A DNA stretch of 64,000 bases from Sphaerodactylus townsendi. Lineage: Eukaryota. Each line of letters begins with the position of its first letter. Positions within the stretch are counted from its first letter, which is position 1. The stretch lies in NCBI RefSeq assembly GCF_021028975.2, contig NC_059440.1, positions 17,546,001-17,610,000 of the forward strand, written 5' to 3'. Both the position numbers and the translations under genes were made by a program. The notes beneath the pieces are model-generated. The model saw only the letters and a program-made list of their open reading frames with translations, was not told the origin of the DNA and did no database searches. Positions 11,709-63,029 of the stretch are shown here, in pieces.

Positions 11709-13169
11709 TACGGTATTATATACTCCTTGATGTTGGTGCTGGATTTAGATGAAGAGAGGCCCTAGGCCAAGCTATTCCACTTGTGAGGGCCCTCCCAATC
11801 CTCTACCCTCATGACCAGAGGAAGATGGAAGAGTGTTTAAAACAAAATTGAGTAAAGCCAAGGGTGTTTGAAATCCCGCAATTCACCATTTCTCCTCTGA
11901 AGGACATAAGATGTTATTGTGAAATGCCATAGTGATTGGGAAACAATGCATGAATAAAATGCACACACCTATGACCGTGTCAAAAATATTATACACCTTG
12001 GCTGGAGTCCCCCTAGATTTTGAGGCTCTAGGCTTCAGCCTGACAAGCCGAAAGGTCAATCTGACACCGCTTGATGTCCCTCAGCCTCCCGAGCCCCCAC
12101 CCAATCTCCAGGAATTTCCCAACCCAGAATTGGCAACTTTTTTATTGAAGAGGTAACTGGATGCTGAGAATACCTCCACAACTGACTCAAAGTTCCCACA
12201 ATGGAGAAAGGGACTCCTGAAACCCAACTCCTGGGCTGATTTTGCTGGCTGCATGTAATTATTGCTAGACTGCTCTGTTTTATTTATTTGTTTTTATTTA
12301 TTTCTTTTCCTTGCAGAGCTTAGGCATCGTGCAATATACACAAAACACACACAAACATGTGTATATATAATATATATAAAAACATAAATTACTAACTGGT
12401 TGCGGTGGGTCTTCTGGGCTGTGTGGCCGAGGTCTGGTAGATCTTGTTCCTAATATGTCGCCTGCATCTGCGGCTGGCATCTTCAGAGTATCATAGAGAA
12501 AAGTCTGTTTCACACTGTGTCTAGTGAGAAGGGAAAGTTTAGTGGAGTATAGTGTCCATGTCCCAGGGTGGGGAACCAGTCAGTAAGTGTTTGAGTGGAA
12601 CTTCCTATGCAAAGGTGTGGTTGAGTGCACTCTATTGCGGGTGGGGTTATCAGTCCATTTTTTAAGTACTGGTAGTCAAGCTTTGCTAATTTTCAGAGTC
12701 CCTTCTTTCTTGTTGAAGTTGTCTTGGTGTTTATGAATTTCAACGGCCTGCCTGTGCAGTCTGACATAGTAACCTTCCGAATTGTCCAGAATTTCTGTGT
12801 TCTCAAATAAAATGTTATGTCCCGTTTTGTTTAACACATGTTCTGCAACTGCAGATTTTTCAGGATGGTTAAGCCGACAGTGTCTTTTGTGCGCCTTAAT
12901 GTGAGCCTGAATGTTTCACAGTGTGAAACAGACTTTTCTCTGTGATGCACCTCTGAAGATGCCAGCCACAGATGCAGGCGACACGTTAGGAACAAGATCT
13001 ACCAGACCACAGCCACATAGCCCAGAAAACCCACAACCGTGAAAGCCTTTGACAATACATAAAAAAACAAACTTTAAAAGCAGTGTATTGTCAAAGGCTT
13101 TCATGGCTGGATTCAACTGGTTCTGGTGGGTTTTCCGGGCTGTGTGGCCGTGGTCTGGTGGATTTTGTT

Positions 13170-13210
13170 CCTAACGTTTCGCCTGCATCTGTGGCTGGCA
13201 TCTTCAGAGG
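13170..13210 (-). ncRNA. Minimal hammerhead ribozyme motif, intact core
   Basis: Exact reverse complement of 13450-13490. Confidence 0.75.
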
Positions 13211-13449
13211 TGTATCACAGAGAAAAGTCTGTTTCTCACTGTGTCTAAGTGAGAAGGGAAAGTTTAGTGTGGTATATTGTCCGTGTCCCAGGGTGGGGAA
13301 CCAATCATTAAGTGTTTGGGTGGAACTTGCTATGCAAAGGTGTGGTTGAGTGCATTGTCTTGCGGGTGGGGTTATCAGTCCATTTAATGTGCGCCTTAAT
13401 GTGAGTCAGAATGTTTCACAGTGTGAAACAGACTTTTCTCTGTGATACA

Positions 13450-13490
13450 CCTCTGAAGATGCCAGCCACAGATGCAGGCGAAACGTTAGG
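13450..13490 (+). ncRNA. Minimal type I hammerhead ribozyme motif (PLE-associated), intact core
   Basis: CCT-CTGAAGA-T-GCCAGC-CACAGAT-GCAGGC-GAAA-CG-TT-AGG: CUGANGA and GAAA boxes, helix I CCU/AGG, helix II hairpin, palindromic ACGU in place of helix III, and GUU cleavage triplet. Confidence 0.75.
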
Positions 13491-13689
13491 AACAAAATCC
13501 TCCAGACCGTGGCCACACAGCCCAGAAAACGCTCCAGAACCAGTTTAAAGTCAGTGTTTAGAATGGTAGCAAGTAATTATTGTTAGACTATGTTTTATTT
13601 GTCTCACACTATCGGTCAGGCCGGTCCAAAGTCCAGCCTGTGCACAAATAAAATTGTTGGATCACAGAAACGCACCAAGGCAAAGCCCT

Positions 13690-13831: not shown

Positions 13832-16800
13832 ATGGTTTTGCTGGCGCTCGTGGTGTGCCTGGTGCTGGGATGGAGCCCGGCCCTGGCCCTGGAAGGAGGG
13901 ATGCTCTATCCTCGGGAATCGCCCTCCAGGGAGCTGAAGGACCTCAGCGGCCTCTGGAGCTTCCGAGCCGACCGGTCCGAGCGAAGGGATGCGGGCTTTG
14001 TGCAGCGGTGGTATGAGCAGCCGCTCCGGCAGGTGAGTAGGCAGTCCTGGCTTGCAGAGAGAGAGAGGGGTTCCAGCCCTGCAACCTTATGGGGAACTGT
14101 CCATGGTGATTTCCTTTCGAAGGAACTGCAATCTGTACATGCTTCAGAGCTTTCTCATCTTTCTGAGTGCCTGTGTGTTCTAGAGGCAAGCCCAGAGTTC
14201 AGATTCAGGGTGGAGGTAGCAGCGAGGTAGCCTGCCTCTGTCCATGGAGGTTCTATTTAGGTATCCTATCACCGCTAGACCATTGGCAGTTGCCACACCG
14301 AGCCTCATTGGTGACCATCCTCTGTTTCTCAGGACGGGCACTCTGTCCTTGATAATTTCTATTTATCTGTTACATTTTCTGCTTCCTTCAAGAGCTTACA
14401 GCAGCACATGTCTCCATTTTGTCCTGACAGCTTTGTGGGGTTCTAGCCCTGCTGCCTTGTGGGGTGAAAGGTGACTTCCTTTTAGAAAGAACACCACTTT
14501 GATTTTCGGGGTCTTTGGGGCAGTGCAGGTCTCCTGACCTACATCACAGCAGCCTGGCTGGCCCTGACCGGACCAAGAATATCCAGCCCAGCTCCCTGCT
14601 TCCCACAGGAGCCATCAGAATCTCCAAAATTGTCCACAAGCAAGGCAGGATTGCCACAGTTCCCGTTTGCTGTCTTTGGCAAATATCCCCACCCTTTGAA
14701 AGGGAACCTTGGGGTCTTGGCTGCTGCTAAATTCATTCCAATCAAGCCAGGAGCAGAAAAGGCCAATTGCTCTTTCCTTCAGCTGTTCTGGAAAGAGGAA
14801 GTGAAGCCCTTCAGCGGTTTCTGTGCAGCGGAAAAAGGCAAAACCACAAAGCTGGAGAAATGTTGCTTCTCAGTAAGAAACACCCTCATATGCCTGTGAG
14901 TCAGGACAGAAAAAAATTGGGGGGGGGGGGAGGGAATTGCAAGTCAGGACATTATTTCCAGCAAGGTTATTGTAATGCAAAGTTAAGAACATCAGAACTT
15001 GCCTGCTGGATCAGACCAGAGTCCATCTAGTCCAGCTCTCTGCTACTTGCAGTGGCCCACCAGGTGCCTTTGGGAGCTCACGTGCAGGAGGTGAAAGCAA
15101 TGGCCTTCTGCTGCTGCTGTTATAAGTTATAACACTTTTAAAAATGGTATAGTGTATTAGATTACTATCTACTTTATCACCCTTTACTATTTACATTTTA
15201 GGCTCTGGGTACACTCCAAAAAGTGTTAAGGAATGTCCTAGACTTCAAAATCAAACTTTCTTTTTGTAGCAGTGCAGCAAAGGCAGGTCTGCGCCATCAA
15301 ATGGCCACTTGACAGTGGGAAGCGCCTTTCCACGATCCTGTGTCGGCCTGGAGGTAAAGACAGGAGCACAGCTGGCAAGAAAAGTTGGCAGACCTACAGA
15401 GCGATGAAACTGATCTGGCGGGAGTCCCTTGCTTTGGAGATCGCTGCAAAGCTAGCCGGAGCAGAGGAGCCGTTCTGCCCTAACGTATGACTTTCTCTTT
15501 CAGTCTGGCCCGGTGATTGACATGCCGGTCCCTGCCAGCTTCAACGAGATCACTCAGGATCCCAATCTGCGAACGTATGTCGGCTGGGTTTGGTACGAGA
15601 AGGAGGTGATCCTGCCCGCCCGCTGGCTCCAGAAGGAGGCTCGGACACGTGTGGTGCTTCGGATCGGGAGCGCTCACTACTACTCGATCGTCGTGAGTCC
15701 AGGGGAAAACATTTTGACACACTGAAAATTGCGTACCTGTGCAAGGCCGGCTTTAGTGTTTGAAGGGAGGGGCTAAGGTGCCCTCCAGTGCCCATTCACT
15801 AAGCATGCAGCCCTCAGACACAGCAGAGCCTGACCTTTTCATGTTGACTGAAGCTCCAGTGATGCTGGAACAGCTCAGAGGAGCTCACTGTAGGTCTGTC
15901 TCCAGGCACAAAATGGCTGATGACCCCCAAAGCCTCCGTGACAATCCCCTATTCCTGGAGTACAAGGATGGGCCCAGAACTCTGGCTCTTCCCGGTGTAG
16001 GCTTGGCAGATTCCCCAACAAGGCGATCCTTGTCACCAGCTGGAGAAATGGGGGTCCTTGATTCTCCCCATAAAGCTTGGCTCCCCAGATTCCAGAACGG
16101 TCACATTTTTGCAGATAAAGATCCAATCACACGTCACATATCCTAGCTGATAGATCAATGAAGGTGACTTCAGGGCATATTCAGACATGCACAAATTGTA
16201 TGCATTTATTTTATCATTTGATTTACTAGGGCTCTGGGTGGTGTACAAAGGATAAAACAATTACAAAGTCACAACTAGCAATTAAAACAGAATAAATTTT
16301 AAATACAATAAACCAGCAAAAAGCAGAAAACCTAGCATTGCATGGCAACCCAGAAAAATCTCTAACCCCCTGGGAGGGGACCAGGCACAGCAAACGATGG
16401 CCAATTAGGATGGTATATATATAGGGGGGTGGCGTGGGAGGCAATCAGCAACACCCCCCCCCCCAAAGCCCAGGGAAACAATAGAACCAGGGGGCATACA
16501 TTGAAAATGCTGGGGGGAAGAATTAGGACTGGGGGGAAGAATTAGGATAAAAGGAAACACTTCTTCATGCAACGTGTGATTGGTGTTTGGAATATGCTGC
16601 CACAGGAGGTGGTGATGGCCACTAACCTGGATAGCTTTAAAAAGGGCTTGGACAGATTGATGGAGGAGAAGTCGATCTATTGCTACCAATCTTGATCCTC
16701 CTTGATCTGAGGTTGCAAATGCCTTAGCAGACCAGGTGCTTGGGAGCAGCAACAGCAGAAGGCCCTTGCTTTCACATCCTGCATGTGAGCTCCCAAAGGC

Positions 16801-19800
16801 ACCTGGTGGGTCACTGCGAGTAGCAGAGAGCTGGACTAGATGGACTCTGGTCTGATCCAGCGGGCTAGTTCTTATGTTCTTATGTTAACTCCATTTGACA
16901 GGCTCTGTGGAACTGTCCAAGGTCCCACAGGGCCCTGATAGCTGGAGGGAGAGTGTTCCATCACGCAGGGGACAGGGCTGTAAAGGCCCAGGCCCAGGTA
17001 GAGACCAGCTGCATCGTTGAGAGTCCGGGGACCACCAGCAAATTTGCCTCTGCAGATCGCAGAGGCCGAATAGGGACAAGGCCGAGAGACGGTCCCCAAG
17101 GGATGAGGGCCCCAGGCCGTGAAGGGCCTTGAAGGTCAACACCAACACCTTGAAGGCGATCCGGTATTCTGCTCGGAGCCAGTGCAGTTGGCACACAGCA
17201 GCACACGTGAACTGACACCTTTCAAAAGCATTGCATGATCTATTCACCACATTTGACACTGCTCTTCCCACAAGGGGATCGGGGCAGCTTGGAAGGTTCT
17301 TCCCCCCCGTTGCTCCAGTTTTGTCCTCACAGCAGCCCTGTGAGGTCAGTTAGGCGAAGAGAGAATGGCTGGCCCACAGTCAGTTAGAGGGTTTACTGTA
17401 TTTGAACCCAGGTCCTAGTCCAACAATCTTACCTTTACACCCCATCTGCATTTGAGTAAAACTGGAAGATCCCTTCTCTAGCAAATACAAGGGTGCAAAC
17501 TCTGAAGCATCCCAGCCTCGTTTCTGAAGCCTTCCGTTTGAGTCCGCGTCTTACATTGGGAGGAAGGTGGCTTGCATATGATTCTCTCGTATTCCTTTCC
17601 AGACCTCTGATTTATCCCCTTGCAGTGGGTCAACGGGGTACAGGTGACCGAACATGAGGGTGGCCACCTCCCCTTTGAAGTGGAGATCGGCAGCCTCCTC
17701 CAGCCCGCCCAGCTGTGCCGCATCACCGTCGCTGTCAACAATACCCTGACGCCTCACACGCTGCCTCCGGGGACTATTCAGTATTTCAAAGATGAGTCCA
17801 TGTGAGTTCACATCCCAGCAGGAGGGGTGTGTGCATAGGTGTACAGGCTGTTGGGTGGAAGAGAGAGGGAGATAGATATCACCCATTCGCTAGTCAAGAT
17901 TCCAGAATGTTCTCCCTAGATAAAATGAAGGAAGCTGTTCTGGTGTGTGTAAATGCCATCAAGAAGAAGAAGAAGAGTTTGGATTTATATCCCACCTTTC
18001 TCTCCTGTAAGGAGACTCGAGGTGGCTTACAAGCTCCTTTCCCTTCCTCTCCCCACAACAGACACCTGGTGAGGTAGGTGGGGCTGGGAGAGTTCCGAAG
18101 AACTGCGACCAGCCCAAGATCACCAAGCAGGAATGTTCCTAGATCAGCCTCTGCCACTCAGGTGGAGGAGTGGGGAATCAAACCTGGTTCTCCGGATAAG
18201 AATCCACCTGCTCTTAACCACTACACCACAGCCAACCTATGGTGACCCTGTAGAGGGTTTTCAAAGCAAGAGACTAACCGGTGGTTTGCCGTTGCTTGTT
18301 TCTGTATAGCGAACCTGGACCTTTGGTGGTCTCCCATCCATGCACTAACCTGGGCTGACCCTGCTTATCCTTTGAATGCTGAGCAGATCAGGCTAGCTTG
18401 GGCCATTCAGGTCAGGCCTTCCAAAGGTTACCTTGCATTTTTTTATTTCCAGGCTTTGGTTGTAGTCTCTTGGTATCTCAAAGAGTCTTGATCCTCTTTC
18501 ACATATGTTTGTTTTTAAGGGTTGAACCAGTTATTTGCAACTTTAAAAAAACCAGTTTCCCCATTCTTGGCTTTAAAATTTCACTTTCAAATGTCATGTT
18601 TTTGACTCAGAATGAGAACGTGTCATATTTGTGTTTCTGAATTGTTTGGTAGTAACCAAATATAACATCTTTTCAGCTGATGCCCAACCAGTGGTCACAC
18701 ACTGTTGCATGTAGGCTGCATATCATGCTGTCCATTTGCTACAGACCCATTCATGTCATCTTTCAAACTGTTGCTGAACTCCATTCTTGCTGGTGCATCT
18801 CTTCACCGACTACCAAGTGTGAAGATACCTGAGGAAACTACCTTTGTACGTAGAGAACAGGGTCTGCTGCTCTTCAGGCCTTCGGTTCAGATTCTAGCTT
18901 TGGATCTAGTCCATAAACTGACCAAGATGACCCTCCATTGGAAAATTCTCCTGGTCTGACTTTGGAATATGCCCCACAAAGGCAGGAGGACAGCTTTAGG
19001 CATTACTGTGGATCCAGTGTGGGGTAGTGGTTAACAGCAACATTCCTGCGAGGGTACGTGGCCGTGCGGCCACCATATAGGTACCACGTAGACAAGGAGC
19101 CACTTGGCAAAGGGAGCTCTCAGTTCCGCTCAGTATCTGTGATGTTTCGTGCAGAGGAGTAAAGAAAAAGAATACTTTGTACAACAATTGTAAGTGCATA
19201 TGGGAGGGTTCTTTGGGTTTTTGTTAATTATATGAAAATGAAAGGATTAGATAGACTTTTATATATTGACACCTGTATTGGTACATTTCAGATTGGCTTG
19301 GCAAAGGACTGCTGAAATAAAAACCTAATCTAGAGGTTTTATAGCCATACCTGACGGTGTACTTACCAGAAAAATTTTCTGTTTATTTGTGATAGAAAGA
19401 TAATGTTGAAATGATACTCACCTAGTGAGTTGGAGTACGCATGGGTGTAATATTTGTGACAGTACCTGTTGTACACCTGCCTTGATTATTATGGTGGATG
19501 CAAGCTTGTTAAGCAGTCTTAGGCCAGTCATATACCATCAATCTGACACTGCTTAACAGTGTTGTTGTGATGGATAAAATGGAGGACAGAAGAACAAGGT
19601 TTGGGGGAGAAAAGTGGCATACAAATGAAGTAAATGAGAAATAAATAAAATATTATCCATGCTTATTCGCAATTGGGGATTCTTCCCCCACCCCAGTCCT
19701 CTGACTTCCTTTGTCCCTTGCCTTGGTACAGGTATCCCAAAGGTTATTTTGTTCAAAAAACAAGCTTCGATTTCTTTAACTACGCTGGGATTCACCGCCC

Positions 19801-22800
19801 CGTCATCCTGTATACAACACCTTCGGCCTACATCGATGACATCACCGTGACCACAGACTTGGCAGAAAACGTTGGTAGGTTGTGCGCTTTTGCAGTTCAT
19901 GGAAGTCCAAGATGGGGTGGGGGTTTGAAATAAGAATCATAGAGCTGGACGACATCACAAGGGCCATCAAGTCCAACCCCCTGTCATGCAGGAACACACA
20001 ATCAAAGCACTCTCAACATATGTTCATCCAGCCTCTGTTTAAAAACTTCCAAAGGAGACTCCACCACTCTCCAAGGCAGTGAATTCCACCGTCGAAGAGG
20101 CCTGACAGTTATAAAGTTCTTCCTAATGTTTAGGGGGAATGTCTTTTCCTGCACCTTGAATCCATTACTCCATGTCCTAGTCTCTGAGGCAGCAGAAAAC
20201 AAGCTTGCTCCCTCTTCGACATGACATCCCTCCAAACATAACTATATCATGTTCCCCCTTAACCTTCACTTCTCCAGACAAAACATTCCCAGCTCCTAAG
20301 GGTGTTTCCAGTCTTTTTTGTACAGTGACAGTCTTCAATATTGGACTGCTCTTCTGCCAAGGTGACATTTGAACCCAGGACTTCCTTGTAGTCACTCAAC
20401 CCCCTCTTTTTCCTTCGGATCAGGTTTGGTACAGTATTTGATCTCGGTACGGGGAAGCTCTCGCTATTCCCTGACTCTAACTTTGCAAGATAGAGAAGGA
20501 GTGGTGGTGGCTACTGGAAACGCGTCAGCAGGAGGAATGAAAGTGCTGGATCCCAACCTGTGGTGGCCCTATTTGATGAACGAACAACCCGGGTACCTTT
20601 ACTACTTAGAGGTATTATATTTGGGCTTGATCGGGGGTAGGGGGGAGAGGATGCTCACGTAGAAGAAGAAGAGTTTGGATTTATATCCCCCTTTCTCTCC
20701 TGTAAGGAGACTCAAAGGGGCTTATAATCTCCTTTTCCTCCCCACTCACCTGATCCCTTGGCCCAAGCCCCGGGAACAGTTGCACATAAAATCTCCACCT
20801 GGTTAATTTGTGCAAGCAGACTTGTGCAAGCGAACACTTTCTCTATGGGGTATACAGTGGCTCACATCATGTGGGTGGGTACTGGGGGGAAAGAAGGGCT
20901 GGTGAGTGGGGGCTCATGTGCCCGGAAAGGTAATGCAAAAAGGGGCATCTTTTGGACTACAGGTTACATTATCTGCCTTTGTGGATGGAGAGGTTTTGGA
21001 AGACAAATACACACAGCCAGTCGGCTTCCGTACCGTGCAGGTCACCAGCACCCAGTTCCTCATCAACGGGAAGCCTTTTTACTTCCACGGGGTCAACAAA
21101 CACGAAGATGCTGACGTGAGTTGGGCTGGATATTTTTCCTACTAAGCCACTTGCTCAACACCAGCCGGGTACCAAAGTAAGATGCTGTACCAAAGTAAGA
21201 TGCTGTAAGGTCCTTGTCTGTATGTATTACAGACTGATAAGAAGGAATACTGGAAAATTATGTTGAAAAGAGACCTGTCCATAAACTGGTTGCGGTGGGT
21301 TTTCCGGGCTGTGTGGCCGTGGTCTAGTGGATCTTGTTCCTAATGTTTCACCTGCATCTGTGGCTGGCATTTTCAGAGGTGTATCACAGAGGGAAGTCAA
21401 CAAGATCCACCAGACCACAGCCACACAGCCCAGAAAACCCACCACAACCAGTGGTATCCGGCAGTGAAAGCCTTCGACAATACCTATCCATAAAGTCCAA
21501 CAACCTTTATAAAGGCCTCACACGCAATTGGAATCTGGAACAAGTTTAATAGTTCAGTGAGAACCAACACTTTGCCTGTTTGTTGCTGTTGATTGTTAAA
21601 ATCTATTTTATAGCTTATTTTTATCCTGTCCTTCCTCTGTGGAGGTCACAGAGCAGCATACAATGTTCTCCTTGCATTGGCTTATTTTCACAACCACCCT
21701 ATGAGATAGGATGGACTGAAAGAGAGACTGGCTCATGGTCACCCAAGCAATCTTGAAGGCAAAGTGGGGATTTGAACCCAAGATTCTGGTCCAACGCTCT
21801 ATCCAAGAGGTCCCCAATGTTGCGCTTATGGGCGTCATGGCATCTAGCAACACCTTTTCTGGCTCCCACCAAGTGTCTTTAGGGTGGGTGGGGCCAGGTA
21901 GGGCTTTTGCCCAGCAAGTCTTCTGATTGACTACTGGAGATTTAATTGGCTATGCAAATTTTTAAAATGTTGCTTTGGTAGCAGCTGCCACCACACCACA
22001 TGGATCTGCACTGTGTTACTGAAGTTAAACTGTGGCAACTATTTTGTGGCTGGCTCCCCCTCTTGCGGCAGCCATTTTGTGCTGCGGCCAACATGCTGTG
22101 TGAGAATTCCAAATGCACCCTCAGGCTCAAAAAGGTTTGGGACTCCTGCTGTATCCACTACACCACTTCAGCTCCCATGGACGAATCCATGCTCGGCATC
22201 CATTAGGGTCATGCAGTGCCCTCCTGAAACCGTGATGTAAAAATAGGGCTTTGGTTAATTCTGAGAGGGAGCTCACCGGGTTCTTTATAACACAGATTCG
22301 TGGCAAAGGACTGGACTGGTCCCTGATTATGAAGGACTTCAACCTTTTGCGCTGGCTGGGTGCCAACGCTTTTCGCACAAGCCACTACCCTTACGCTGAG
22401 GAGATCATGGAACTTTGCGATGCTTACGGCATCGTGGTAATTGACGAGTGTCCCGGAGTGGGCATGAAAGACAGGTGAGCAGTTAGATACGAGGCTCCTT
22501 TAAATATATTCCAATGTATTACAGGATTTGGTTGCAAATTGGCCTCTGGAAATAATCATTTGCCACAGAGGGACGCTGCAGGCTGGAAGAGAACTCTTTT
22601 GGTCAGGCCATTATTAGATAGAATCTTTGCTGCTCACATGAATATAAACAAGCTCTCTTAACCTGCAGATCAGCTGCTACTGTTTTTAGCTTTAAATTCT
22701 TAAACTTTAGCTTAAAACTAGTGTTTAGCTAGTTTTTAGTTTTAAATTCTTTCCATTGCTTTGAATTAACCTGGCTTCAGGGGTCTCTTGCAGAAAGGGG

Positions 22801-25800
22801 AGGCGGAGATATTGTGAATTAAAATGATTCTAGGAAGGTCTTCAAAAGACAAGTAGGAGCACCAGCCCACCAACATTTCTTCTCTCTGACCAAGACGGAG
22901 GACTGGCCATGATACCTATTCCCAAAAACTTTGCTAAATGTCTGTTAGCAAACCAATGTTTTAAATAAATAAAGTAAGCACAGCTGATTGAGAGAAATGA
23001 GGTGCATTTAGGTAGTTTCAAAGAGGAAGAAAGATGAATTGGTTGGAAGCCTAACATTTTGCTTTTTCCTTTCAGCATCAACTTTGGAGACAAATCTCTC
23101 CAGCATCACCTTATTGTGATGGAGGAACTTATCCGCCGGGACAAAAACCACCCCTCGGTCGTCATGTGGTCGGTGGCCAACGAACCGGCTTCAGAGCTCG
23201 CCCCAGCCGCTTATTACTTTAAGTGAGAATCTGTCGAGCTTTGTAAAGCAGACTTCAGCTCACGCTCTGTAAAATACGGATATTAATCTGCTTTGTCTTT
23301 GGTGAAAGACACCAATTCCTCCTCCCTCCCCCCCACCCATCCCCGAATCCTGAAAACAGGCTCTTCAGTAACCTCAAAGAAAAGGAATCTGGGCAGCTTG
23401 GTCAGGCATTATACATTTCTGCTTTTTCCTCTCGCCATGCAGGACTGTAATCGCTCACACCAAAGCCTTGGACCCGACCCGGCCCGTCACGTTCATCTCA
23501 AATGCCAATTATGCTCGTGATCAAGGGGTAAGCATCTGTCTATAGTCAAGATGTTTTTGCAGCTAGGCTGTGTTAGAAGCAGCATCCCCAAGTAACAAGA
23601 AGTAACAGTGCCCCTTGATTCCATGTTACTTAGACCTCATCTGCAGTATTGTGACCAGTTGTGGGTGCCACAGTGCTGTGACCACTTGTGGCTTTTAGCT
23701 TTCTCTGCTGCCATGGTCTGGGCGTGGACATTAATGTCAAGCCCCGATTCTGCGGACAACTGTAAGACTCTAGAGTTCAAATCAGCAGCCTTTATTGACA
23801 GACATCAGCGTGGCTAAAAGGAGCCGGTTCTAAAGAACTGTCTTTGGGTACAACCTTTATCACCTTCTCATGATAAAGTTATCATGCAAATATAAACTAT
23901 ATATAAATGAGTAATATTCTTCAGCCATGGCACCTCGGGTTATTATAAAATGCATATGTAAAGGCTCAATATTATTTATTTACTTATTTTAACATTAGGA
24001 AAATTTAATTATCCTGTTGTTTTAATTAGTAATTCTCCAGAGCCTGAGGAGTGGATATATCCTTTTAGCAAATAGAATTAAATCTGGAAGTGCCAGATAT
24101 TTCCTGGCGTTGGATCTTAAATATAGTCAAATGGTATCTGTTTTACAAATTTGTCTTTGAATTGAATGGCTAAACCCTTTTAATCCATTTTATATTTTTA
24201 CAAATGAACTGTCAAGTTGGAAAAAAAATCCATAGATGTAACATATGATTTTAAATTTAATAATAGTGTATAACCACTGTCTAATACCTAATGCCAATAA
24301 AGGTTATTGTGATTGATTTATCACCTTCTCACCCCATATCAAAAGCAAAGTAAAACAAGACAGGAACGTGATAGCTGTTGGGTTCTCAGGGCCGGTGTGA
24401 AGCGATAGTCAGGCGCCGGCACTTGGTTATTCCTCGTTCGCTGCATGTTGCAAATCAGGGAAAGGTGGGAAACAGAAAGTAAAGTGAAGGTCTATTAGCA
24501 TGACAGAACACAGTGCCTTCTTCGAAGAGTCTTCCGGACAGTACCCCACATTATGAAAGTGGCGGATAAACTATTATGAGTTCTGAGTAGAGCAACCAAG
24601 ATGGAGGAGAGTCTGGCAAGAAAGCCCTGAGTGGAAAAGTTGACGGATGCGGGTCTAGATGGGAGGGGAGACAGGATAACATCCTTTACCTACTCCCAGG
24701 GCTGCCGCATTGGAGAGGGCAAAGATTCATTCTCTGCTGCCGCAGTAGAGCAAGGCGGGATCTAATGGCTTAGGTTACACCTGGCTAAATTTCAGTTTAA
24801 CATGAGGATAAATTTCCTGTTGGCAAGTGTGATTCAGGCAGCCTAATAGCCCAGGCAGGGATATAGAATGGTATAGTATAGCCTAGTCTTGGAAATGGAA
24901 CTGGATCGATACTTGGAAAGGAGCCCTCCAAGCAAGAGTCCGCAGTGGAAGGCAATGGCAAACCACCTCTGCTGAATCACTTGCCTTAAAAACCCTCCCA
25001 CAGGTCGCTGCAACTTGGTTGTGACCTGACGGCACTTTACACACACATGCAAGTCTAGGCTGGCCCTCAGTTATCAGATTTTGGGAGTTAAGCAGGGCTG
25101 GCTGAAGTCTGTACTTGGATGGGAGGCTATGCAGAGGCATGGCAAACCACCTCTGCTTGTCTTTTGCCTTCAGAATCCCATGGCCCTGAGGTCACCATGA
25201 GGCCGCCTCCGCTTGACAGCCCACAATTATAAAAAGTGATTTAACAGTGGAATCGAATGACGGGCTCTGCCTCACTGAAAGGCCGCTGTCACGCATGCTG
25301 AATTATGCACTTTCAGAGCATTTCAACCGGCGTTTAACGTAGCTTTTGCCATTTCACACAGTAAAGCCAGCATGGTATAGTGGTTAAGAGCAGGTGGATT
25401 CTAATCTGGAGAACCGGGTTTGATTCCCCACTCCCCCACCTGAGTGTTAGAGGCTTATCTGGTGAACCAGATGTGTTTCCGCACTCCTGCATTCCTGCTG
25501 GGTTACCTTGGGCTGGTCACAGTTCTCTCAGGACTCTCTCAGCCCCACCTACCTCACAAGGTGTCTGTTGTGGGGAGAGGAAGGGAAAGGAGCTCGTAAG
25601 CCACCTTGAGTCTCCTTACAGGAGAGAAAGGTGGGGCATAAATCCAAACTCTTCTTCTCCTCTTCTTCTAAAATCCAGCTGCAAAGTTCATTGAAAGTGG
25701 TGTGAAAATGCTAGAAGTCTTCAAACAGAAGCTGGGTAGCAGTCTGAGGGAAGTTCCATTTTGGATTTCCTACAGTCAGCCGGGCATTATAGCCCCTTCT

Positions 25801-27298
25801 CAGAAAAACTACTCACACAGCTGCTTTGCTGCGGGCAGGGAGCTTGTTCTCAAAGGAGTGTGATAAAGACGCCATTCTCCTCACACAAAATTAAGATGAG
25901 GTTTTCTGCAGGCACCTTATGTGGACGTTATCTGCGTGAACAGCTACTTCTCTTGGTACCACGACCCTGGGCACCTGGAAGTCATTCAACGGCAACTCAC
26001 TTCGCAATTTGAGAACTGGTACAAAACTCATCAGAAACCCATCATCCAGAGTGAATACGGAGCAGACGCCATCGCTGGCATACACAGCGTAAGTAGGGCA
26101 TGTGGGAAGGGAAGCATTTTAAATAACATTTCGCAGTCCCCCCCACACACTATAAGCCATTGAAAAATTCCAAGGAGTTTCCTTTGCTCCTGTTACAAAT
26201 ACAGAGTGAACATTCTGAGGTGGGAAGGTACCCCCTCCTCCAGTCTGACACAAAACTTTCCAGAAGGTTCTGCCAAATGCTGTGCCAGTCACTGATCAAA
26301 CAGAGATCATTCTCTTTAAAACAGAAGCCTACCACCCCATGCTAAAACAAGAGCTCATGCACATCTCATGTTGATTTCATGTGTACGTCTCTTGTGCGCC
26401 TGTCATTCACTGGGGTCCATTTCACCCAAAGGTATCTCTTGCTTTCCCTTCCTGCTGCCTTTAGGACCCTCCCCTTATGTTCACAGAGGAATACCAAGCA
26501 GCCGTACTGAAAGAATATCACACCATCTTCGACCAAAAGAGAAAGGAGTACGTCATTGGGGAACTCATCTGGAATTTTGCTGATTTTATGACCGAACAAG
26601 GTAGGATGACGTTGGGTGAAAATTACAAACTGCTAGCAGAATGACATGTTCTGTGATTAGTCCAACATTCCATCAAACCAAAAGGGAGTCCCATAGCATC
26701 TTCAAAACCAACAAACTGACGTAAACTTTCGCTACAGTGAATCTCAAGGCACCGTAGATTGAAAGAGTTCTGGTTGATTTGGCTGAAACAGGCAAACAGA
26801 GCAAACCAGGGGCGTACCTCCTAGGGAGACATATGTGGGGTCAAATGTCCCCGGGTGTGGCCATTTAGTCAGCTATGGAGAGGGATGAGAGAAATGTGAT
26901 GGTGACTTTGAAATGACCTGGTGCCCCCAAACTTTGTTTGGTCGTGCTGGGGGAGAGCAGCAACCCATATTTGGGGGGCGGGGGGGCATAGAAAACTCAG
27001 ATTTTGCCCTGGGCTGCATTTTCCCTAGATATGCCTCTGGAGAAACCCCTCTGGAATATGCTAATGTGAAATTCTGTGGGTCTTTGCTGATGCCTTTTTT
27101 AAACTGCCTTTCACATCAACAGGAACAACACGCGTTTTGGGGAACAAGAAAGGGATTTTTACCCGGCAACGGCAACCCAAATCAGCTGCCTTTCTTCTTA
27201 GAGAAAGGTACTGGAAGCTTGCAAATGAAACTGGACTTCTTATGTTCAAACAGGACAACGTCTGTCTTCCTCAGCCCCAGGCCTTTAAATGTTCTTAA
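13832..27298 (+). CDS. GUSB: Beta-glucuronidase (GH2), complete, 12 exons, 649 aa
   Basis: Exons 13832-14032, 15504-15692, 17626-17801, 19732-19874, 20424-20611, 20963-21115, 22296-22474, 23076-23222, 23443-23527, 25912-26088, 26465-26600, 27123-27298 (1950 nt in total). Signal peptide [19 protein letters not shown], then [21 protein letters not shown], acid/base motif WSVANEP, nucleophile motif QSEYG, WNFADF and [14 protein letters not shown]. Confidence 0.98.
16536..16887 (+). mobile_element. CR1 LINE 3' end
   Basis: ORF2 end plus 3'UTR with (TTATGTTC)n tail. Same family at ~3105-3317(+) and ~14983-15120(-). Confidence 0.8.
16890..17195 (-). mobile_element. L2-type LINE ORF2 3' fragment
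   Basis: [29 protein letters not shown] motif. Related fragment at ~36305-36465(-). Confidence 0.75.
19933..20300 (-). mobile_element. CR1 LINE 3' fragment in GUSB intron 4
   Basis: Minus-strand ...[22 protein letters not shown]...WNSLP...VFKQRLD with CTATGATTCT tail. Related copies at 36030-36300 and 52611-52930. Confidence 0.85.
21283..21483. mobile_element. PLE terminal fragment with inverted arms in GUSB intron 6; hammerhead motif degenerate
   Basis: Same family as 12394-13545. The minus-strand motif at 21339-21379 reads CTGAAAA (G8 lost). Confidence 0.75.
23871..24316 (+). mobile_element. AT-rich 5'-truncated non-LTR element
   Basis: GCCAATAAAAGG plus (GATT)n tail; 15-bp TSD TTTATCACCTTCTCA (23856-23870, 24317-24331). 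Confidence 0.75.
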
Positions 27299-35049: not shown

Positions 35050-38000
35050 TTAATCCTGTTTGTTGGGGGAGAGTTGGCGTTTCCAGGCCTCGTTCAAGTA
35101 AACTAGTCGTTTGTAGTTGATGATAAAGAGAATGAAGTTCAGCAAGTACGTGACAACACAGACGATGCAGAATTCCTTCAGTACAAAGTATAGAATGTAG
35201 GCCAGGTACAAGGATCCTATTACAGATACTAGGGAGGACATCATGAGGACTAGGGCCGCTACTGCACTTGCCGTCGTACCTGCAAAGAAGAACACAGAGC
35301 AGTTACTGCTACTTTGTCTTGGTCTTGAAACCCACCTTGCCAGCAGGGATTCTAGCCATAACATGCACAGTCATCATGCTAAAGCATACCTTAATAAAGA
35401 CAAGTCAACATTTTCAATCATGAGACAAGGACGAAACAGACTTGTTTACCCCTGTTAAGAACTTATCAACCTCAGCAGTAACTCATTTTGAGCCAAATAA
35501 GCACGCAGCAATCTTAAAACACTAAAAAAAACTCCAGTAACTTTTTAATTCCAGATAAGGTGTCTTTGCAGCATAAAGTAATAACCCAACATTCTGCTTA
35601 TTATAGAGAAGGAAGTACCCCAAGCGTATCACGTGATTTGTATTCACTGATTATTCACATATGGACATATCACGGAAGACGACTTAAATTCAGTCATCAT
35701 AACTGCAACTTTTAATAGACAAAAATGTATTAAGATCAACCTGGATCGTGCCACCATGTATCTGACGAAGGGAGCTGTAACTTTTGAAAGCTAGAAATCT
35801 TCTTGATCTTTAAGATACCACTGAACTCGAACCTATGTTTCACTTGTTATTGGTGAGCTGACTTTTTGTCTTTTCTTGTTACAAATATCTTAAATAAAGA
35901 GTCATTTTCTTTAAAAAAGCATTTCACATTTAATGACATCACCGTGACCACAGACTTGGCAGAAAATGTTGGTAGGTTGTGCACTTTCGCAGTTCATGGA
36001 AGTCCAAGATGGGGTGGGGGTTTGAAATAAGAATCATACAGTTGGAAGAGACCACAAGGCCATCAAGTCCAACCCCCTGCCATGCAGGAACACACCATCA
36101 AAGCACTCCCAACATATGATCATCCAGCCTCCGTTTAAAAACCTCCAAAGAAGGAGACTCAACACTCTCCGAGGCAGTGAATTCCACTGTCAAACAGCCT
36201 TGACAGTCAGGAAGTTCTCCCTAATGTTTAGGGGGAATCTCTTTTCCTGCACCTTGAATCGATTACACCGTGTCCTAGTCTCTGAGGCGGCAGAAAACAA
36301 AACAATATAATGGTGCCAGACGACTCAGGATTTTAAAGGTTAAGACCAGAACTTTGAATCTGACTGGGTACTCCACTGGTAACCAATTCAGCTGGCGGAG
36401 CGCTGGACAAACGTGCTCAAGGCACAGGATTCCAGTGAGGACTCATGCGGCTGCATTCTGCAACTTGCAAGATAGTTGCTCCTTTCTCTTTTTGCAGCAG
36501 GGGAGTAGCTGAGACCCATGAGTTGCAAGGGCAAACTTTAAATGTCCTGGGCACCCCAATGCCGCGTACAACCCAGCCTTCAGAAACCCAGTCTCCACAA
36601 AGCCCACAAGAGGATTATGACGAAAGAGTGCAAACAACTTACCAAGCAGCATCTGTAATACATAAAACACAAGCCCGAAAACACTGTTCGGCTGGTTTAT
36701 TACACTGTCCTTCCCAAATATGGAGCCCAGCAGGCCGAACCCTCGACCCCATCTGCAAGACAATGGACAAAAACACTCTACATTGTAAGAACTGGCTTAT
36801 CTCGATTCCTGCTTCAATCAGTCTGACAAGCAGCAACAGTTAAACAGTCACACACAGATTGATCAGTTATACCCCTACCCAACACCTCACCCCCGGAAGA
36901 GAATCCTGCTTTGCCAAAGTCAAGAAAACTGCACAAGAATGCTCCAGGTTAACCTGCCAATTGGCTCCATCGGCCAGCCTGTGCAAACAAGATGCTATCA
37001 GTCACGTAATAGCACAAACAGAGCACTATTTCCCCCAAAGAACACATCCTTGAAAATATGTTGAACTGGTATACAGCTAAAATGCACACAGGAGTTATTG
37101 TTCTATAACACCAGAAACGGTTATACACAAGCTTTGCACACATGTTGAGGAAAACCTGCCTTACACTGTTTCAATCGTATATAGGACTTTTGAGCATTTT
37201 CCAAAATCTCCAGTTTTTCTATCAGCAAATCAGGGGGATAAAAGGAACAGCTTCTTCAGGTTTTTCAATTCTGTCTTCACATCTGTGAACTAAAGTGATG
37301 GGGCCTTTCAGTGGCAGACAGTCATTTTGCTACCCTGATTCTCTCCTGCCACAACCCATGTTTCAGACTTGATTCCCTGTAAGATTGCCAGTCCATATAC
37401 CCAACCTGGCAGGAGCACAACCCTCCCAGTATGGGCTAGCTCTCTTGAAATGAATTGACCCCAGGGAAAGGGGCAGCTTCCCTCACATTAACAACCTATT
37501 ATAACCAAAGAGACAGGAGCTGCGTGGCATAGTGGTTAAGTGCTTGCACTGCCACTCACATGGTCAAGAGTTCGAGCCCCCTGTGGGTCAGATATCCTGG
37601 CAGCTGGCCCATGGTCAACTCAGCCATCCATCCATTTCTTGGTTGGTAAATGAGTACCTGGCTCATAGCTAGGGGGTAAAGAATAGCCAGAGAAAGCAAT
37701 GGCAAACTACCCCACAAAAGAGGCTTGCCTATGAAATCACTGCTCGCAGTGGTACCTCAGGGTCAGACACGACTGAAGGGGAAACTTTACCTTTATAACC
37801 AAAGAAAAGGTACTGAGAAATTCAGCTTCAGAAAAAAAAATGGCCACGTCAACACAATGAATGTTGACGCCTTCTCTGCTCAGGAACTTCCACCAACGAA
37901 ATCAGCACTTTCCCTCTTAAGCCTTAAGGATCACTTCTGAAGTGACACATTCTAAGTTTGACAATTTTCCTGGAATCTAAAAAGACGGCACCAATTGTGA

Positions 38001-41000: not shown

Positions 41001-42174
41001 TCTCATACTCTCCTTCACATCCACATTCTCTTCCTGTTAGAAAACCCAGTCATACCCCCATTGACTCAAGACACTGAGATTCACACACTCCATGTACACA
41101 AGGCCTCCGCCCTTACTGTCAGCAATTTATTGTCCAGCCCAAACTTACTGTCAGAAACCCACTTTTCAACAAGCTGAAAAAACAGAGAGGTTACATTCAG
41201 TGAACGGGTAAAAACAAAATACACCACATGCAGACTTGTTCCTTCTCTGTATCCTCTCTGTGTCCACCCACTGATGCAAAAAATGAAACAGAACTGATTC
41301 TTCACTTTATAGTCTTTAAGACCTTCCCCCACTTAACTTATCTTGTGTTACTTTTTCAGATTTCCCAGCCTTTACAATGAAAATTATTCCCCTATGGTCA
41401 CCCTGAAGTCATTCCCATTAATATACCAATCTTTCAGTCTGCCCCAGTTATGTCACCCTTCTAAAGCACGAACAACAGCAATAACCTTACCTCCATCACC
41501 AAAAGGCCTCCCTGGGAAGTCCGTATGCTGTGATCACACCAGCACGTGAGAGCAAAGCTACAATTCTATATAATTTTTATATGTAAAAGAGAGCAAAGTT
41601 TAACTTGCCTGAGATTAGAGCCATAGCATCTTACTGCAAGTTATAACTCGGCCCCACCCACCTCGGTCCAAACCTCACCTTTGCCACAAACTCTCTGAGA
41701 GTCTCTCTCTCACGCTATAGTGAAGAATATTGCTGTTTTACCTTAAAAACCTGCAGTATAGGATACAACAAGCACCAACCACACCCTGGGCATTATTATT
41801 AGTGTACCTTCCAAAGGGCAGACCAGAGGTGGCTAAGAGGCAGCGGCTGCAGTTCCCTAGGAGGCTCGCTCTTCGGGCCTCCAGGTTCTGCCCCTTCGGC
41901 TGGCATTTCTTAATGCGGCTATCTGTACATGCCCAGAGACCCCCTTGACAGCGCCCCCTGTATACATCTAGAGGCCTGACCTGGAGGCGATGGCGGCGGA
42001 GCAGCGGACGCGCTCGCTGAGGTCGCAGACGGCCCGGTAGTGGAGGTCGCGGCCCTTCTCGCGCTCCAGGTGGCAGGCGTAGAGGGACAGCGCGATGCCC
42101 GCCAGGCACACGGCGTAGCGGGCCACCCGCTCCCAGCGCGGCACCGACACTCGCAGCAGGACGGGCGCCGCCAT
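35050..42174 (-). CDS. VKORC1L1: Vitamin K epoxide reductase complex subunit 1-like 1, complete, 3 exons, 177 aa
   Basis: Exons 42174-41981 (194 nt, [23 protein letters not shown]...[10 protein letters not shown]), 36752-36643 (110 nt, [26 protein letters not shown]) and 35279-35050 (230 nt, redox motif CIVC, ...[14 protein letters not shown]). Confidence 0.98.
35933..36029 (+). pseudogene. GUSB: Duplicated fragment of the GUSB exon 4 3' end and intron 4 start
   Basis: Colinear with 19836-19932 (offset 16097), 3 mismatches in 97 nt, and followed by CR1 at the same junction. Confidence 0.9.
37516..37792 (+). mobile_element. Sauria-type SINE (tRNA head, BovB/RTE-like tail)
   Basis: tRNA A/B boxes (TGGCATAGTGG, GTTCGAG), tail GGGTCAGACACGACTGAAGGGGAAACTTTACCTTT, TSD TTATAACCAAAGA (37499-37511, 37793-37805). 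Confidence 0.75.
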
Positions 42175-51800: not shown

Positions 51801-54800
51801 ACAGGCCCAACATGGGTATCGTCCTCATTGGGTTGGATCTAGCCCAGGGGTCTACAACCTACGGCTCTCCAGATGTTCATGGACTACAATTCCCATCAGC
51901 CCCTGCCACCCATGGCCAATTGGAGAGCCGCAGGTTGCAGACCCCTGATCTAGCCGCTCTCCAAGGACTCTTTCTTCCCTCAAACATTGCCCTTTCCGCA
52001 AGGGAAAAGCTGTTTTAATATTGGTGGGACCCCCTTAGAACGGAAGGAAGCTCAAACTTGAGTTCACAATAAATGTAAGGTCTGATGAATTTCGTCAAAG
52101 AAACTTTGCTCGGCTTGCCTATGATTCCTAGGCGGTTTCCTTTCTAGGATGTCTGTAGGGCCCAATCTGCTTAGCCTTGGCATTGATCTCATTATTCTGA
52201 AGACTAAAGTGATAAAGAAATAAGAACACGGCCTCCTGGCATCAAGGTTCTTTCATTGGTTTAATCCTTTCTCTGACCTGATGAGTTGGGCAACAGGCCT
52301 TATCTGTGAATGTTTAACCAGCTTAAAGAGACGAGCTGTTTTGTAACACTTTCATTTGACTGAAGACGTTTTGACCGCTGATCTCAAAGGGATATTCTTA
52401 GTGAAATGTTACAGATGTATTGCCTCTATAGAGGGGGGAAATGACAAGAATTGGAATTTTGGATTATTTCAAGTGGTATCTGAGCTATCTAATAATGGGC
52501 ACTGTTAACCTTGATCACCCCACAGGCAAAACCTTATCCCTGCCCATTTATGGCTTGAATTGGGGCTCTGACTTGCAGATTTCAAAAAGCAATTATTGTG
52601 TTCTGAATGAGAATCATAGAGTTGGAAGAGAGCCTAAGGACCATCAAGTCCAACCCCCTGCCATTCAGTAACACACAATCAAAGCGCTCCTCACAGATGG
52701 CCATCTAGCCTCTCTTTATAAACCTCCAAAGAAGGAGACTCCACCACACTTGGAGGCAGTGCATTCCTCTGTTGAACAGCCCTTACTGTCAGGAAGTTTT
52801 TCCTGATGTTTAGGTGGAATCTCTTTTCCTTCACCTTGAACTCCTGGTCTCTGGAGCAGCAGAAAACAAGCTTGCTTCCTCACCAACATGACAACCATTC
52901 AAATATCTGAACATGGCTGTCATGTCACCTCATAAGAGAGGCAAACTGGAAGTCTTTAAGGGGCTAGGTAATTCTTTATGTTTCATACAGGTGTACACTC
53001 CCTATTTGTTTGCTCATGAGGGATTACACATAGTTGTGTGAAGCTACCCTAAGATCCTCCTCTATTCTTTATTAGAAGTGAATGGCCTAGGCATATCCTA
53101 CCTCATCAGATTTCAGAAGATAAGCAGTGTTAGCCCTGGTTAGTACTTGAATGGTAGACCACTAAGGATGTCCTGGGTTTCTACACAGAAGTAGGCAATG
53201 GCAAACTGCCTCTATTAATTTCTTACCTTGAAAACATTATGGAATTGCCGTAAATCACCTGTGACTTGACTGCACTTTCCTCCATAACAATGTACATTAA
53301 ACATTTGCTGTGAAAACGTTCATGTAAGCAAAGGTTAGAAGTTGTGGCATGTGTGGTTTATGTTTAAATCATTAGACTAAGAAGGAGGGGCAGATCTTGG
53401 TTCAAATGCCCTGCCTCCTTGGAGAGAGGGCAAGATGAAAATATGTTACCCTGCACTTTAAGCAGGACACTGTATTCCTGCTTTCTCCTTTCTTCAGTTC
53501 CACTTATATTGACAACAAAGGTGTTAGAGTGGAAATGGAAGTAAACTGAGTAAGAGAACTTTTCCCTGCATATTCAAGGCCAGGAGCCATTTAAAAGAAA
53601 AATCTGTTTAAACTTTATCTCACTGAGTAGCAAGCAATTCTGGATATGCAAATTTTTCCCTTGCCTTCACAGCCGGGCTCCACCAATGCGAGCAGCAGCA
53701 CCACCAGCTGCGCATGCCCCTGTCCCAGCACCCGCACCTGCGTCAGCAGTGGCTTCTCCTGCCCCCAGGCAGCCAGGCCTGATGGCCCAGATGGCTACCA
53801 CAGCTGCTGGCGTGGCTGTGGGCTCTGCTGTCGGGCACACGCTCGGACACGCAATGACTGGAGGATTTGGGGGCGGCTCTGAAGCTGCAAGGCCAGACAT
53901 CACTTACCAGGTAAGTGTGGAGGGGGACGTTTTCTGCCTTGCTGGTTTTTATACGTGGTGAGTAAAACTTAGTCCCACGTAACTCTTCTCCCACCACCCC
54001 CATACCAAAAAGAAATGTTGGGAAGTTGTTGGGCCGGCACTCACTTCTCACCCAAGGAACAAGGCTTATCCTTTGAGTTAGCAACAGGTTTGGCTGGTGG
54101 GAGTGAACTCTGACCTTTGGGATCAAAGGAAGAAATGAGAAATAAATGCCTCCTTGAATAAGGCCCCACAGCGGTCTTTATGTCCCAGAGTATTTGGAGG
54201 TCTGGAAGTCAAAAGAATGCACAACAACAAACGCAGTAGCTGTTCTGCAATAAATTATTTTAACGTATGTGTTGAGTGAGAACAGAATACTAAATGAAAA
54301 CAGTTCAGCTCTCAAGATTTTTGTTGTCATCTTTTAATCTGAATGCTTTAGGAGGGCAGCGGAAGCTTTCTGTGAAACAACAGTTAAGCAAACTGGGGAC
54401 TTGTGAAGAAGGGGAGACAACTAAGAAACCCCACTATACTCTTCAAAAACTCCTCCCAATTCTTTCAACTGAGTCTCACTTAGTCCATTTCTGAAGGTTT
54501 TCTGAACCACTCTCAGCCCCACCCACCTCACAGGGTGTGGTGTGGGGGGAGGGAAAGGAGATTGTAAGCCCCTTTGAGTCTCCTTACAGGAGAGAACGGG
54601 AGATATCAATCCAAATTAAGCTCTCTCCTGCCATCTAATTTCTGTTGTGCTTCCCCATCAGGAGCCGCAGGCTGCCCAGCCCGCAGCGCAGCAGTCTCAG
54701 TACACACCCTGCCAGTATGAAATGAAGCAATTCCTGGAGTGTGCCCAGAACCAGTCGGATCTGAAGCTGTGTGAGGGGTTCAGCGAGGTCTTGAAGCAGT

Positions 54801-60454: not shown

Positions 60455-60590
60455 CACAGACACAGTGTGTAACAGACTTCTCACTGTGATACACCTCTGA
60501 AGATGCCAGCCACAGATGCAGGCGAAACATTAGGAACAAGATCTACCAGACCATGGCCATACAGCCCAGAAAACCCACAACAACCTGTAA
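60455..60590 (+). mobile_element. PLE terminal fragment with hammerhead motif (60494-60534)
   Basis: cctCTGAAGAtgccagccacagatgcaggcGAAAcattagg; core intact, helix III palindrome decayed. Confidence 0.75.
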
Positions 60591-61950: not shown

Positions 61951-62538
61951 AAACTCCGTGTCAACAGGCCAGGCTAGCCACTGCTTGGAAGTTCTGCATG
62001 TAGATCTTATGTTCTGAGTGGCTTCTGATAGAAAAGCACTCTGCACATGCATAGTGTTTTTACATGTTGAGCTATTTTTTGTGATACAAATAGAATGCGG
62101 TGGCTGATCTGAATTAAAATGATTGCTGTATGGAACGACTCCACGGGCAAACTTCTCAGAGTTCAGTGAAGCGGTTCAGCTTTAAAAAAAAATTATGTCA
62201 GTAGCAGAACAGTCACTTTTTATTTCTTTTTTACAATCAGTGCATGTGATGGTGGTTTGCAGTGCAGGGAAGAACGCAGGGGAAAGTGCTTTTGAAATAC
62301 AAGGCAGGAATTGGTATGCGGTAAAACCACACACACTAAGGCCCTTTCCGCACATGCAGAATAATGCACTTTCAATCCACTGAAGATTCTGTGTGGTTGG
62401 AAAGCAGCCTGCCCTGCAGGGTTGTCACGAGGGCAAACGTGAAGCAAAGGAGAGCCTTGAGACATGATAGCTTGCTTTCGTGCTTACTTGCATCCCGCAG
62501 TACACAGTACATACTAAAAAATACTGTTTCTTTCCTGA

Positions 62539-62945
62539 TTCTGGTGGGTTTTCCGGGCTGTGTGGCCGTGGTCTGGTGGATTTTGTTCCTAACGTTTCGC
62601 CTGCATCTGTGGCTGGCATCTTCAGAGCTGTATCATAGAGAAAAGTCTGTTTCACACTGTGTCTAGTGAGAAGGGAAAGTTTAGTGGGATATATTGTCCA
62701 TGTCCCAGAGTGGGAAACCAATCATTAAGTGTTTGGGTGGAACTTGCTATGCAAAGGTGTGGTTGAGTGCATTGTCTTGCAGGTGGGGTTATCAGTCCAT
62801 TTTTTTAAGTACTGGGAGCCAGGCTTTGCTAATTTTTCACAAACACCAGGACAACTTCAATAAGAAAGAAGAGACCACGGCCACGCAGCCCGGAAAACCC
62901 ATCAGAACCAGTTGAATCCGGCCGTGAAAGCCTTCGACAGTACAT
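62539..62945. mobile_element. PLE fragment with inverted arms upstream of the first PHKG1 coding exon; minus-strand hammerhead motif 62588-62628
   Basis: Same terminal repeat as above, plus an inverted HKHQDNFNKKEET endonuclease remnant at ~62838-62877. Confidence 0.8.
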
Positions 62946-63029
62946 TGTTTCTTTCCTGTTTTCCCTCACAGCATTTTGTCATCCTGAAATAAACCTCAAG
63001 AAGGTTTGGAACAGTGAAATCAGACAAAG

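What the first reader, a model, noticed from the sequence alone, without database searches (positions are those of the whole stretch)
35933..36300. A piece of GUSB exon 4/intron 4 has been copied into VKORC1L1 intron 2 together with a CR1 junction
Seen: 35933-36029 matches 19836-19932 (39 nt of exon 4, its GT donor, and 58 nt of intron) with only 3 differences, all transitions at CpG sites. Both copies continue into a minus-strand CR1 at the same base, but by my manual count the CR1 parts differ at roughly one position in ten. The unique segment is the 3' flank of the CR1. Inference: either CR1-mediated 3' transduction, which is well known for L1 and not something I associate with CR1, or ectopic repair/gene conversion seeded by homology between two CR1 copies 16 kb apart that captured the flank. 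The higher identity of the flank and the truncated donor favour the second. The direct repeat could also promote deletion of the 3' parts of both genes.
Basis: partly seen in the sequence, partly recalled or inferred. Interest (0 to 1): 0.7.

Follow-up and report, generated by a model that had tools for sequence, protein, structure and literature searches.

The report
Repair copy mimics retrotransposon transduction
A 97-base piece of one lizard-type gene (GUSB) sits a second time, 16 kb away, inside an intron of its neighbour, likely copied there by DNA break repair that used two older copies of the same retrotransposon as a bridge; this is a known kind of event and probably silent.

Summary
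35933-36300 matches 19836-20202 (35 differing columns of 370). The 97-nt GUSB piece occurs only twice in the genome, and contigs of two other samples cross its junctions, so it is no assembly chimera. The flank looks younger than the CR1 beside it: 0 of 89 non-CpG sites differ against 24 of 258 (Fisher p 0.001; intron only 0.02). Against 51 family copies the two CR1 parts carry 17 and 13 private changes and share one rare base, which recurs in 1.2% of the family. Transduction fails: the donor is a 368-nt stub, there is no tail or target duplication, and a landing 16 kb away has odds near 2e-5. Best reading (0.58): a break beside an existing CR1 tail was repaired by copying from the neighbouring CR1 into its unique flank. 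Main rival (0.3): an old whole-block duplication whose flank was later converted. A tree cannot separate them (AU p 0.51). The copy lies antisense to VKORC1L1, so its splice donor is unusable there. Such repair-mediated duplications are described (PMC2671141). The scan noted a related but different CR1 5'-end capture on other DNA.

The parts
19732..19874 (+). GUSB exon (exon 4 by recalled human numbering); source of the copied exon end
19836..19932 (+). Donor of the unique 97-nt piece: 39 nt exon, GT donor at 19875, 58 nt intron; it is the 3' flank of the donor CR1
19933..20300 (-). Donor CR1 3' fragment, 5'-truncated at about 20296-20300; 15 of 260 non-CpG sites differ from the family majority
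35933..35971 (+). Copied end of the GUSB exon (left boundary uncertain by 2 nt, 35933-35935); antisense to the host transcript
35972..36029 (+). Copied GT donor and 58 nt of GUSB intron, including the donor's own flank/CR1 junction
36030..36300 (-). Recipient CR1 3' fragment, 5'-truncated at 36300; first 9 nt identical to the donor; 11 of 261 non-CpG sites differ from the family majority
36233..36233 (+). The one rare base (G) shared by both CR1 parts (donor 20135); 37 of 3149 exact 19-mer matches in the genome carry it
35280..36642 (-). Host intron (VKORC1L1 intron 2 by recalled structure), GT...AG on the minus strand
36643..36752 (-). VKOR-family exon upstream of the host intron (exon 2)

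Best explanation
The 97-nt GUSB piece is a real second copy that was likely added to an already present CR1 by DNA break repair, not by retrotransposition. The copied tract reaches at most about 12 nt into the CR1, so whether long homology or only the short tail primed it is open. The copy is probably neutral: its splice donor is on the strand that VKORC1L1 does not transcribe.
For: Flank 0 of 89 non-CpG differences against 24 of 258 in the CR1 (Fisher p 0.001; 54 intron sites alone p 0.02; uniform-placement p 0.0003 and 0.005). Against 51 family copies: 19 donor-private columns (17 events), 13 recipient-private, 2 shared inside the element, one of them a common CpG variant. All 51 copies are closer to the recipient than the donor is, 43 of 51 closer to the donor than the recipient is (the 51 are best hits, so this is biased). 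The flank is not simply slow: a contig of organism D differs from it at 6 listed places in 104 nt. The shared G recurs in 35 other copies of 3147; the 20 fetched do not carry the donor's or recipient's other private changes as a group; chance sharing is about 4-10%. No target duplication, no tail after the flank. The junction into the CR1 is the donor's own.
Against: The tree does not reject donor and recipient as sisters (AU p 0.506; star-like tree, 2 of 51 inner branches supported). They do share one rare base at 36233, which a common origin explains at no cost. Three of four flank CpGs have changed, close to the CR1 (3 of 10 CpG columns), so the CpG clock does not show a younger flank; on all sites p is only 0.03. 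Donor and copy lie 16.1 kb apart, beyond the 5 kb within which PMC2671141 found most repair duplications. No CR1-only orthologous site was displayed by any search.
Confidence: 0.58

Rival explanations
1. Whole-block repair duplication: soon after the CR1 landed in GUSB, 368 nt (flank plus part of the CR1) were copied in one step into the VKORC1L1 intron; the flank looks younger by later gene conversion between the two direct repeats, or by chance.
For: The recipient CR1 ends inside the donor's span (36300 aligns to 20202, donor runs to 20300); one rare shared base; sister grouping not rejected; 368 nt is within the size range of repair duplications (up to 619 bp, PMC2671141); CpG decay alike in flank and CR1.
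Against: Needs a second event or a p of 0.001-0.02 coincidence; needs the copy to follow the insertion almost at once, as only 1 of about 10 rare donor changes is shared; 5' truncation at any point is normal for this family (element lengths from 288 nt up to the 1.8-kb fetch limit among 51 copies).
Confidence: 0.3
2. CR1-mediated 3' transduction: an antisense transcript through the donor CR1 and 97 nt of flank was reverse-transcribed in trans and inserted.
For: The unique piece is the 3' flank, and the recipient is shorter at the 5' end, the layout that transduction gives.
Against: Donor is a 368-nt stub without ORF; no tail after the flank and no target duplication; random landing within 16 kb has odds 1.8e-5; the copy lacks the donor's private changes; 0 of 51 copies share a 3' flank with each other or with the donor (weak test). 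Several non-L1 LINEs are thought to need stringent 3'-end recognition (PMC3747384, passages).
Confidence: 0.03
3. Capture during the insertion of the recipient CR1 itself (a new CR1 from a master element picked up the neighbour's flank by template switching), so CR1 and flank arrived together.
For: Explains a family-like recipient CR1 with a donor-like flank in one event; LINE insertion ends are known to be joined by annealing (PMC4245944, abstract only).
Against: The recipient CR1 has 11 of 261 non-CpG changes while the flank pair has 0 of 89; that paper concerns 5' junctions, and here the piece is at the 3' end and beside a second CR1.
Confidence: 0.07
4. Assembly chimera.
For: None; no long read or single contig spanning the whole stretch was seen.
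Against: The copies differ at 35 columns. A contig of organism B crosses the left junction (128 + 34 letters, 0 differences; B may be the source species). A contig of organism C, about 2% divergent, crosses the right junction (39 + 497 letters), and a C contig over the flank has depth 70 against 36-45 for single-copy contigs.
Confidence: 0.01

Closest known systems
Repair-mediated duplications by capture of proximal DNA (Pace, Sen, Batzer, Feschotte 2009, PMC2671141; parts 1-5 of 8 read, methods and supplements not)
   Same: Short (50-619 bp) two-copy intrachromosomal duplication, no poly(A), may carry partial exons and splice sites (4 partial exon/intron donors listed; one exon copied in opposite orientation into an intron), seen in chicken and zebrafish too.
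   Different: Here donor and copy are 16.1 kb apart (their confident set is under 5 kb), the genes are neighbours, and one end appears primed by a shared repeat; their pipeline excluded cases in which part of a repeat was duplicated.
Coupled homologous and non-homologous repair / one-sided invasion (Richardson and Jasin 2000: title seen in a reference list only; content recalled)
   Same: One end invades a homologous repeat, synthesis runs into non-homologous flank, end joining finishes.
   Different: Experimental system with an induced break; here a fixed or long-standing germline event with a natural, diverged repeat.
L1 3' transduction (recalled; hallmarks as listed in PMC2671141)
   Same: Element plus its unique 3' flank appears at a new site, shorter at the 5' end.
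   Different: No competent source, no tail, no target duplication, local landing, and element and flank of different apparent age.
Templated extra bases at LINE 5' junctions (PMC4245944, abstract and outline only; lead from earlier finding e1-8157127)
   Same: A LINE fragment joined to a copy of nearby host DNA.
   Different: There the piece is at the 5' end and comes with the insertion; here it is at the 3' end and the source site has its own CR1 at the same base.

Membership tests
Repair-mediated duplication (PMC2671141) | Insert of at least 50 bp found at only one other place | tested here: met
   97 nt, 2 matches in the genome
Repair-mediated duplication (PMC2671141) | No poly(A/T) tail at the insert | tested here: met
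   junction sequences
Repair-mediated duplication (PMC2671141) | Donor within 5 kb (their ad hoc cut-off for the confident 'proximal' set) | tested here: not met
   16,097 bp; so not filed in the proximal set; the paper estimates that about 41% of more distant cases are also repair events
Repair-mediated duplication (PMC2671141) | Microhomology, filler or deletion at the breakpoints, read against an empty orthologous site | tested here: inconclusive
   No orthologous empty site displayed; left boundary uncertain by 2 nt
LINE 3' transduction | Source element able to be transcribed and mobilised (full length) | tested here: not met
   Donor ends at about 20300, 368 nt; family members run past 1.7 kb
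LINE 3' transduction | Tail after the transduced flank and target-site duplication | tested here: not met
   Longest shared word between the flanks is a misplaced 6-mer; short or absent duplications are usual for CR1 (recalled), so this weighs little
LINE 3' transduction | Progeny carries the source's private changes | tested here: not met
   1 rare change shared; 17 and 13 private events
Gene conversion between repeat copies | Recipient repeat existed before the transfer (CR1-only site in an outgroup) | tested here: inconclusive
   Organism D has the CR1 end joined to the right flank (30 letters on the CR1 side, one short of the tool's bridging rule); no joint across the GUSB piece was displayed
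Gene conversion between repeat copies | Patch of higher identity with a sharp edge | tested here: met
   3 of 106 then 30 events in 264 columns
CR1 clade LINE | Reverse transcriptase ORF upstream of a short tandem-repeat 3' tail | tested here: met
   RVT_1 E 4e-22 in locus L013; AGAATCAT-type tails in the copies
CR1 clade LINE | Placement in the CR1 clade by RT phylogeny or repeat library | not testable with these tools
   No repeat library held; name recalled from the tail motif

The most novel reading that the evidence does not exclude
In CR1-rich reptile genomes, neighbouring CR1 stubs act as repair bridges that copy each other's unique 3' flanks, exon ends and splice sites included; this is a recurring, retrotransposition-free route of local exon shuffling that would be misread as CR1 3' transduction, and this locus is a datable example.
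Probability: 0.15. Interest if true: 0.5.

Novelty: new member of a known kind. Interest (0 to 1): 0.22.

Why it matters
As a single event it is a probably neutral 97-nt copy. Its value is as a clean natural example in which element and flank have different apparent ages, and as a warning that an element plus its 3' flank at a new site is not proof of transduction. If such captures are common beside CR1 tails, they add a route of exon shuffling in reptiles. The copy also makes the VKORC1L1 pre-mRNA 97% complementary to the GUSB exon 4 donor region; any effect on splicing or editing is untested and unlikely (about 3%).

Tried and rejected
Empty-site test in relatives (arithmetic): a lead only, not counted as evidence, because it rests on a part without cover and the joints table hid 81 rows. 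In organism D (about 6-7% divergent in the intron) the depth bins fit a left-flank piece of 21 letters that starts at 35908-35910 and stops near 35930, and a single contig over the GUSB piece that starts at 35935; in organism C the same arithmetic fits two left contigs running 30 nt into the piece. This is what a CR1-only site in D would give, but contigs show presence, not absence. Organism E was too shallow (depth about 2). Tree of 54 CR1 rows: star-like, no verdict. Target-duplication search at donor and recipient: nothing in register. Shared 3' flanks among 51 copies: none, a weak test of how common capture is. A G-bearing subfamily that would unite donor and recipient: not seen in 20 of the 35 other G copies fetched. 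Literature: eight searches; the listings showed no title on CR1 3' transduction and that none on CR1-primed flank capture; most subscription papers are not held, so this does not show absence from print. Richardson and Jasin 2000 is not held. The scan's notes near this place: none.

Full report
Observation. Self-BLAST of the window finds 19836-20202 against 35933-36300 on the same strand at 90.5%. In a global alignment 35 of 370 columns differ: 3 in the first 106 (35967, 35983, 35988, each a transition at a CpG) and 27 substitutions plus 3 indels in the other 264. The first 39 nt are the end of a beta-glucuronidase exon (19732-19874; best solved-structure match 1bhg, E 3e-18), followed by its GT and 58 nt of intron. 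The copy lies in a minus-strand intron, 35280-36642, between two VKOR-type exons (Pfam VKOR E 0.03, below cut-off). GUSB motifs run from 13904 to 27200 and the VKOR gene starts near 42174 on the other strand, so the genes converge and the copy is outside GUSB. Gene names and exon numbers rest on recalled human structure.

Is it real and unique? The 97-mer has 2 matches in the 1.81-Gb own genome, while the adjoining repeat has 6032 and 7913 candidates and a longer copy encodes a reverse transcriptase. Four runs were laid on 35500-36800. A contig of organism B crosses the left junction with 128 and 34 letters and no difference; B may be the source species. In organism C (13 differences in 387 and 7 in 536 letters) a contig crosses the right junction with 39 and 497 letters, and a contig over 35935-36059 has depth 70 against 36-45 for single-copy contigs, which fits two collapsed copies (arithmetic; inferred). 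No record spans the whole stretch. A chimera is very unlikely, and the copy is older than the split from C.

Two ages. At non-CpG sites the flank pair differs at 0 of 89 and the CR1 pair at 24 of 258 (Fisher p 0.001; with the 54 intron sites alone 0.02; all sites 0.03). The flank is not held by constraint: a contig of organism D differs from it at 6 listed places in 104 nt. Against this, 3 of 4 flank CpGs have changed, similar to the CR1 (3 of 10 CpG columns), so the CpG clock gives no support.

Are the CR1 parts sisters? From 58 fetched loci other than the two window copies, 51 unique copies were aligned (7 duplicates dropped). Inside the element the donor has 19 private columns (17 events), the recipient 13, and they share two departures from the majority: a CpG variant seen in 18 of 51, and a G at 20135/36233 seen in 0 of 51. 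That G stands in 37 of 3149 exact 19-mer matches genome-wide, and 20 of the 35 other carriers were aligned and do not group with donor or recipient. Exclusive sharing of one derived base occurs in 52 of 1275 random pairs; a site-wise estimate gives about 10%. So the G is modest evidence for common origin or a short conversion patch, not proof. The tree is star-like and does not reject sisterhood (AU p 0.506). The 51 copies are best hits and so biased towards the family centre.

Mechanism. Shown: a donor-type flank and donor-type tail junction fused to a CR1 body that lacks the donor's private changes from 36042 on; no tail and no target duplication. Inferred: a break near the tail of an existing CR1, invasion of the nearest similar copy (the other window copy at 52606 is only 78-80% alike), about 100 nt of synthesis into unique DNA, release and end joining. 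Since the tract enters the CR1 by at most about 12 nt, priming by the short tail alone cannot be told from priming by 270 nt of 90% homology. I put this at 0.58; an early whole-block duplication with later conversion of the flank at 0.3; capture during insertion of the recipient CR1 at 0.07; transduction at 0.03, because the donor is a 368-nt stub, the private changes are not inherited and a random landing within 16 kb has odds 1.8e-5. The outgroup test that would split the first two could not be completed; a lead from it is set out under Tried and rejected and is not counted.

Consequence. VKORC1L1 is read from the minus strand, so the copied GT donor is on the unused strand. The host pre-mRNA is complementary to the GUSB donor region; no RNA was laid.

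Comparison with what is known. PMC2671141 (parts 1-5 of 8 read; methods and supplements not seen) describes 824 human repair-mediated duplications of up to 619 bp, mostly within 5 kb, some carrying exons or partial exons, and finds them in chicken and zebrafish. This locus works like one of them but fails their 5-kb cut-off, so it is filed under the general kind, not their proximal set. Homology-initiated repair finished by end joining is recalled from Richardson and Jasin 2000, of which only the title was seen. Stringent 3'-end recognition by non-L1 LINEs comes from passages of PMC3747384.

Verdict. Real, well-defined, most likely a repair copy that imitates transduction; a new example of a known kind with no sign of function. 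Interest 0.22.

Noticed in passing
L074:1297-1534 and L075:1486-1722 (G000:C3, about 160.27 Mb): Two CR1 fragments 6.9 kb apart, inverted, 91.6% alike, both carry the same rare G and share 10 departures from my 51-copy majority (some are probably subfamily marks) and about 7 nt beyond the tail; a close pair is expected 0.005 times among 35 random copies. Possibly another local copy or conversion.
   Followed up: partly
window 35738-35804: In organism B, otherwise identical here, one contig has 212 unlike letters before 35805 and another stops at 35737, which suggests an insertion or replacement polymorphism in a small repeat.
   Followed up: no
window 19837 / 35934: Contigs of organisms C and D start to match at 35935, not 35933, so the shared AT at the left edge may be a later coincidence (CpG decay in a synonymous GUSB codon) and the true boundary may be 35935 (inferred).
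   Followed up: partly
window 52606-52906: A third CR1 3' fragment in the same orientation, 78-80% alike to the two studied, from an older or different subfamily.
   Followed up: partly
window 12394-13548, 21284-21483, 60458-60588, 62535-62950: A young palindromic repeat family (MITE-like, copies 86-96% alike), several copies clustered or nested just upstream of GUSB.
   Followed up: no
L064:1916-2214 and L073:1-298: Two loci on different contigs share 299 nt at 95.7% outside the CR1 studied; probably another young repeat.
   Followed up: no
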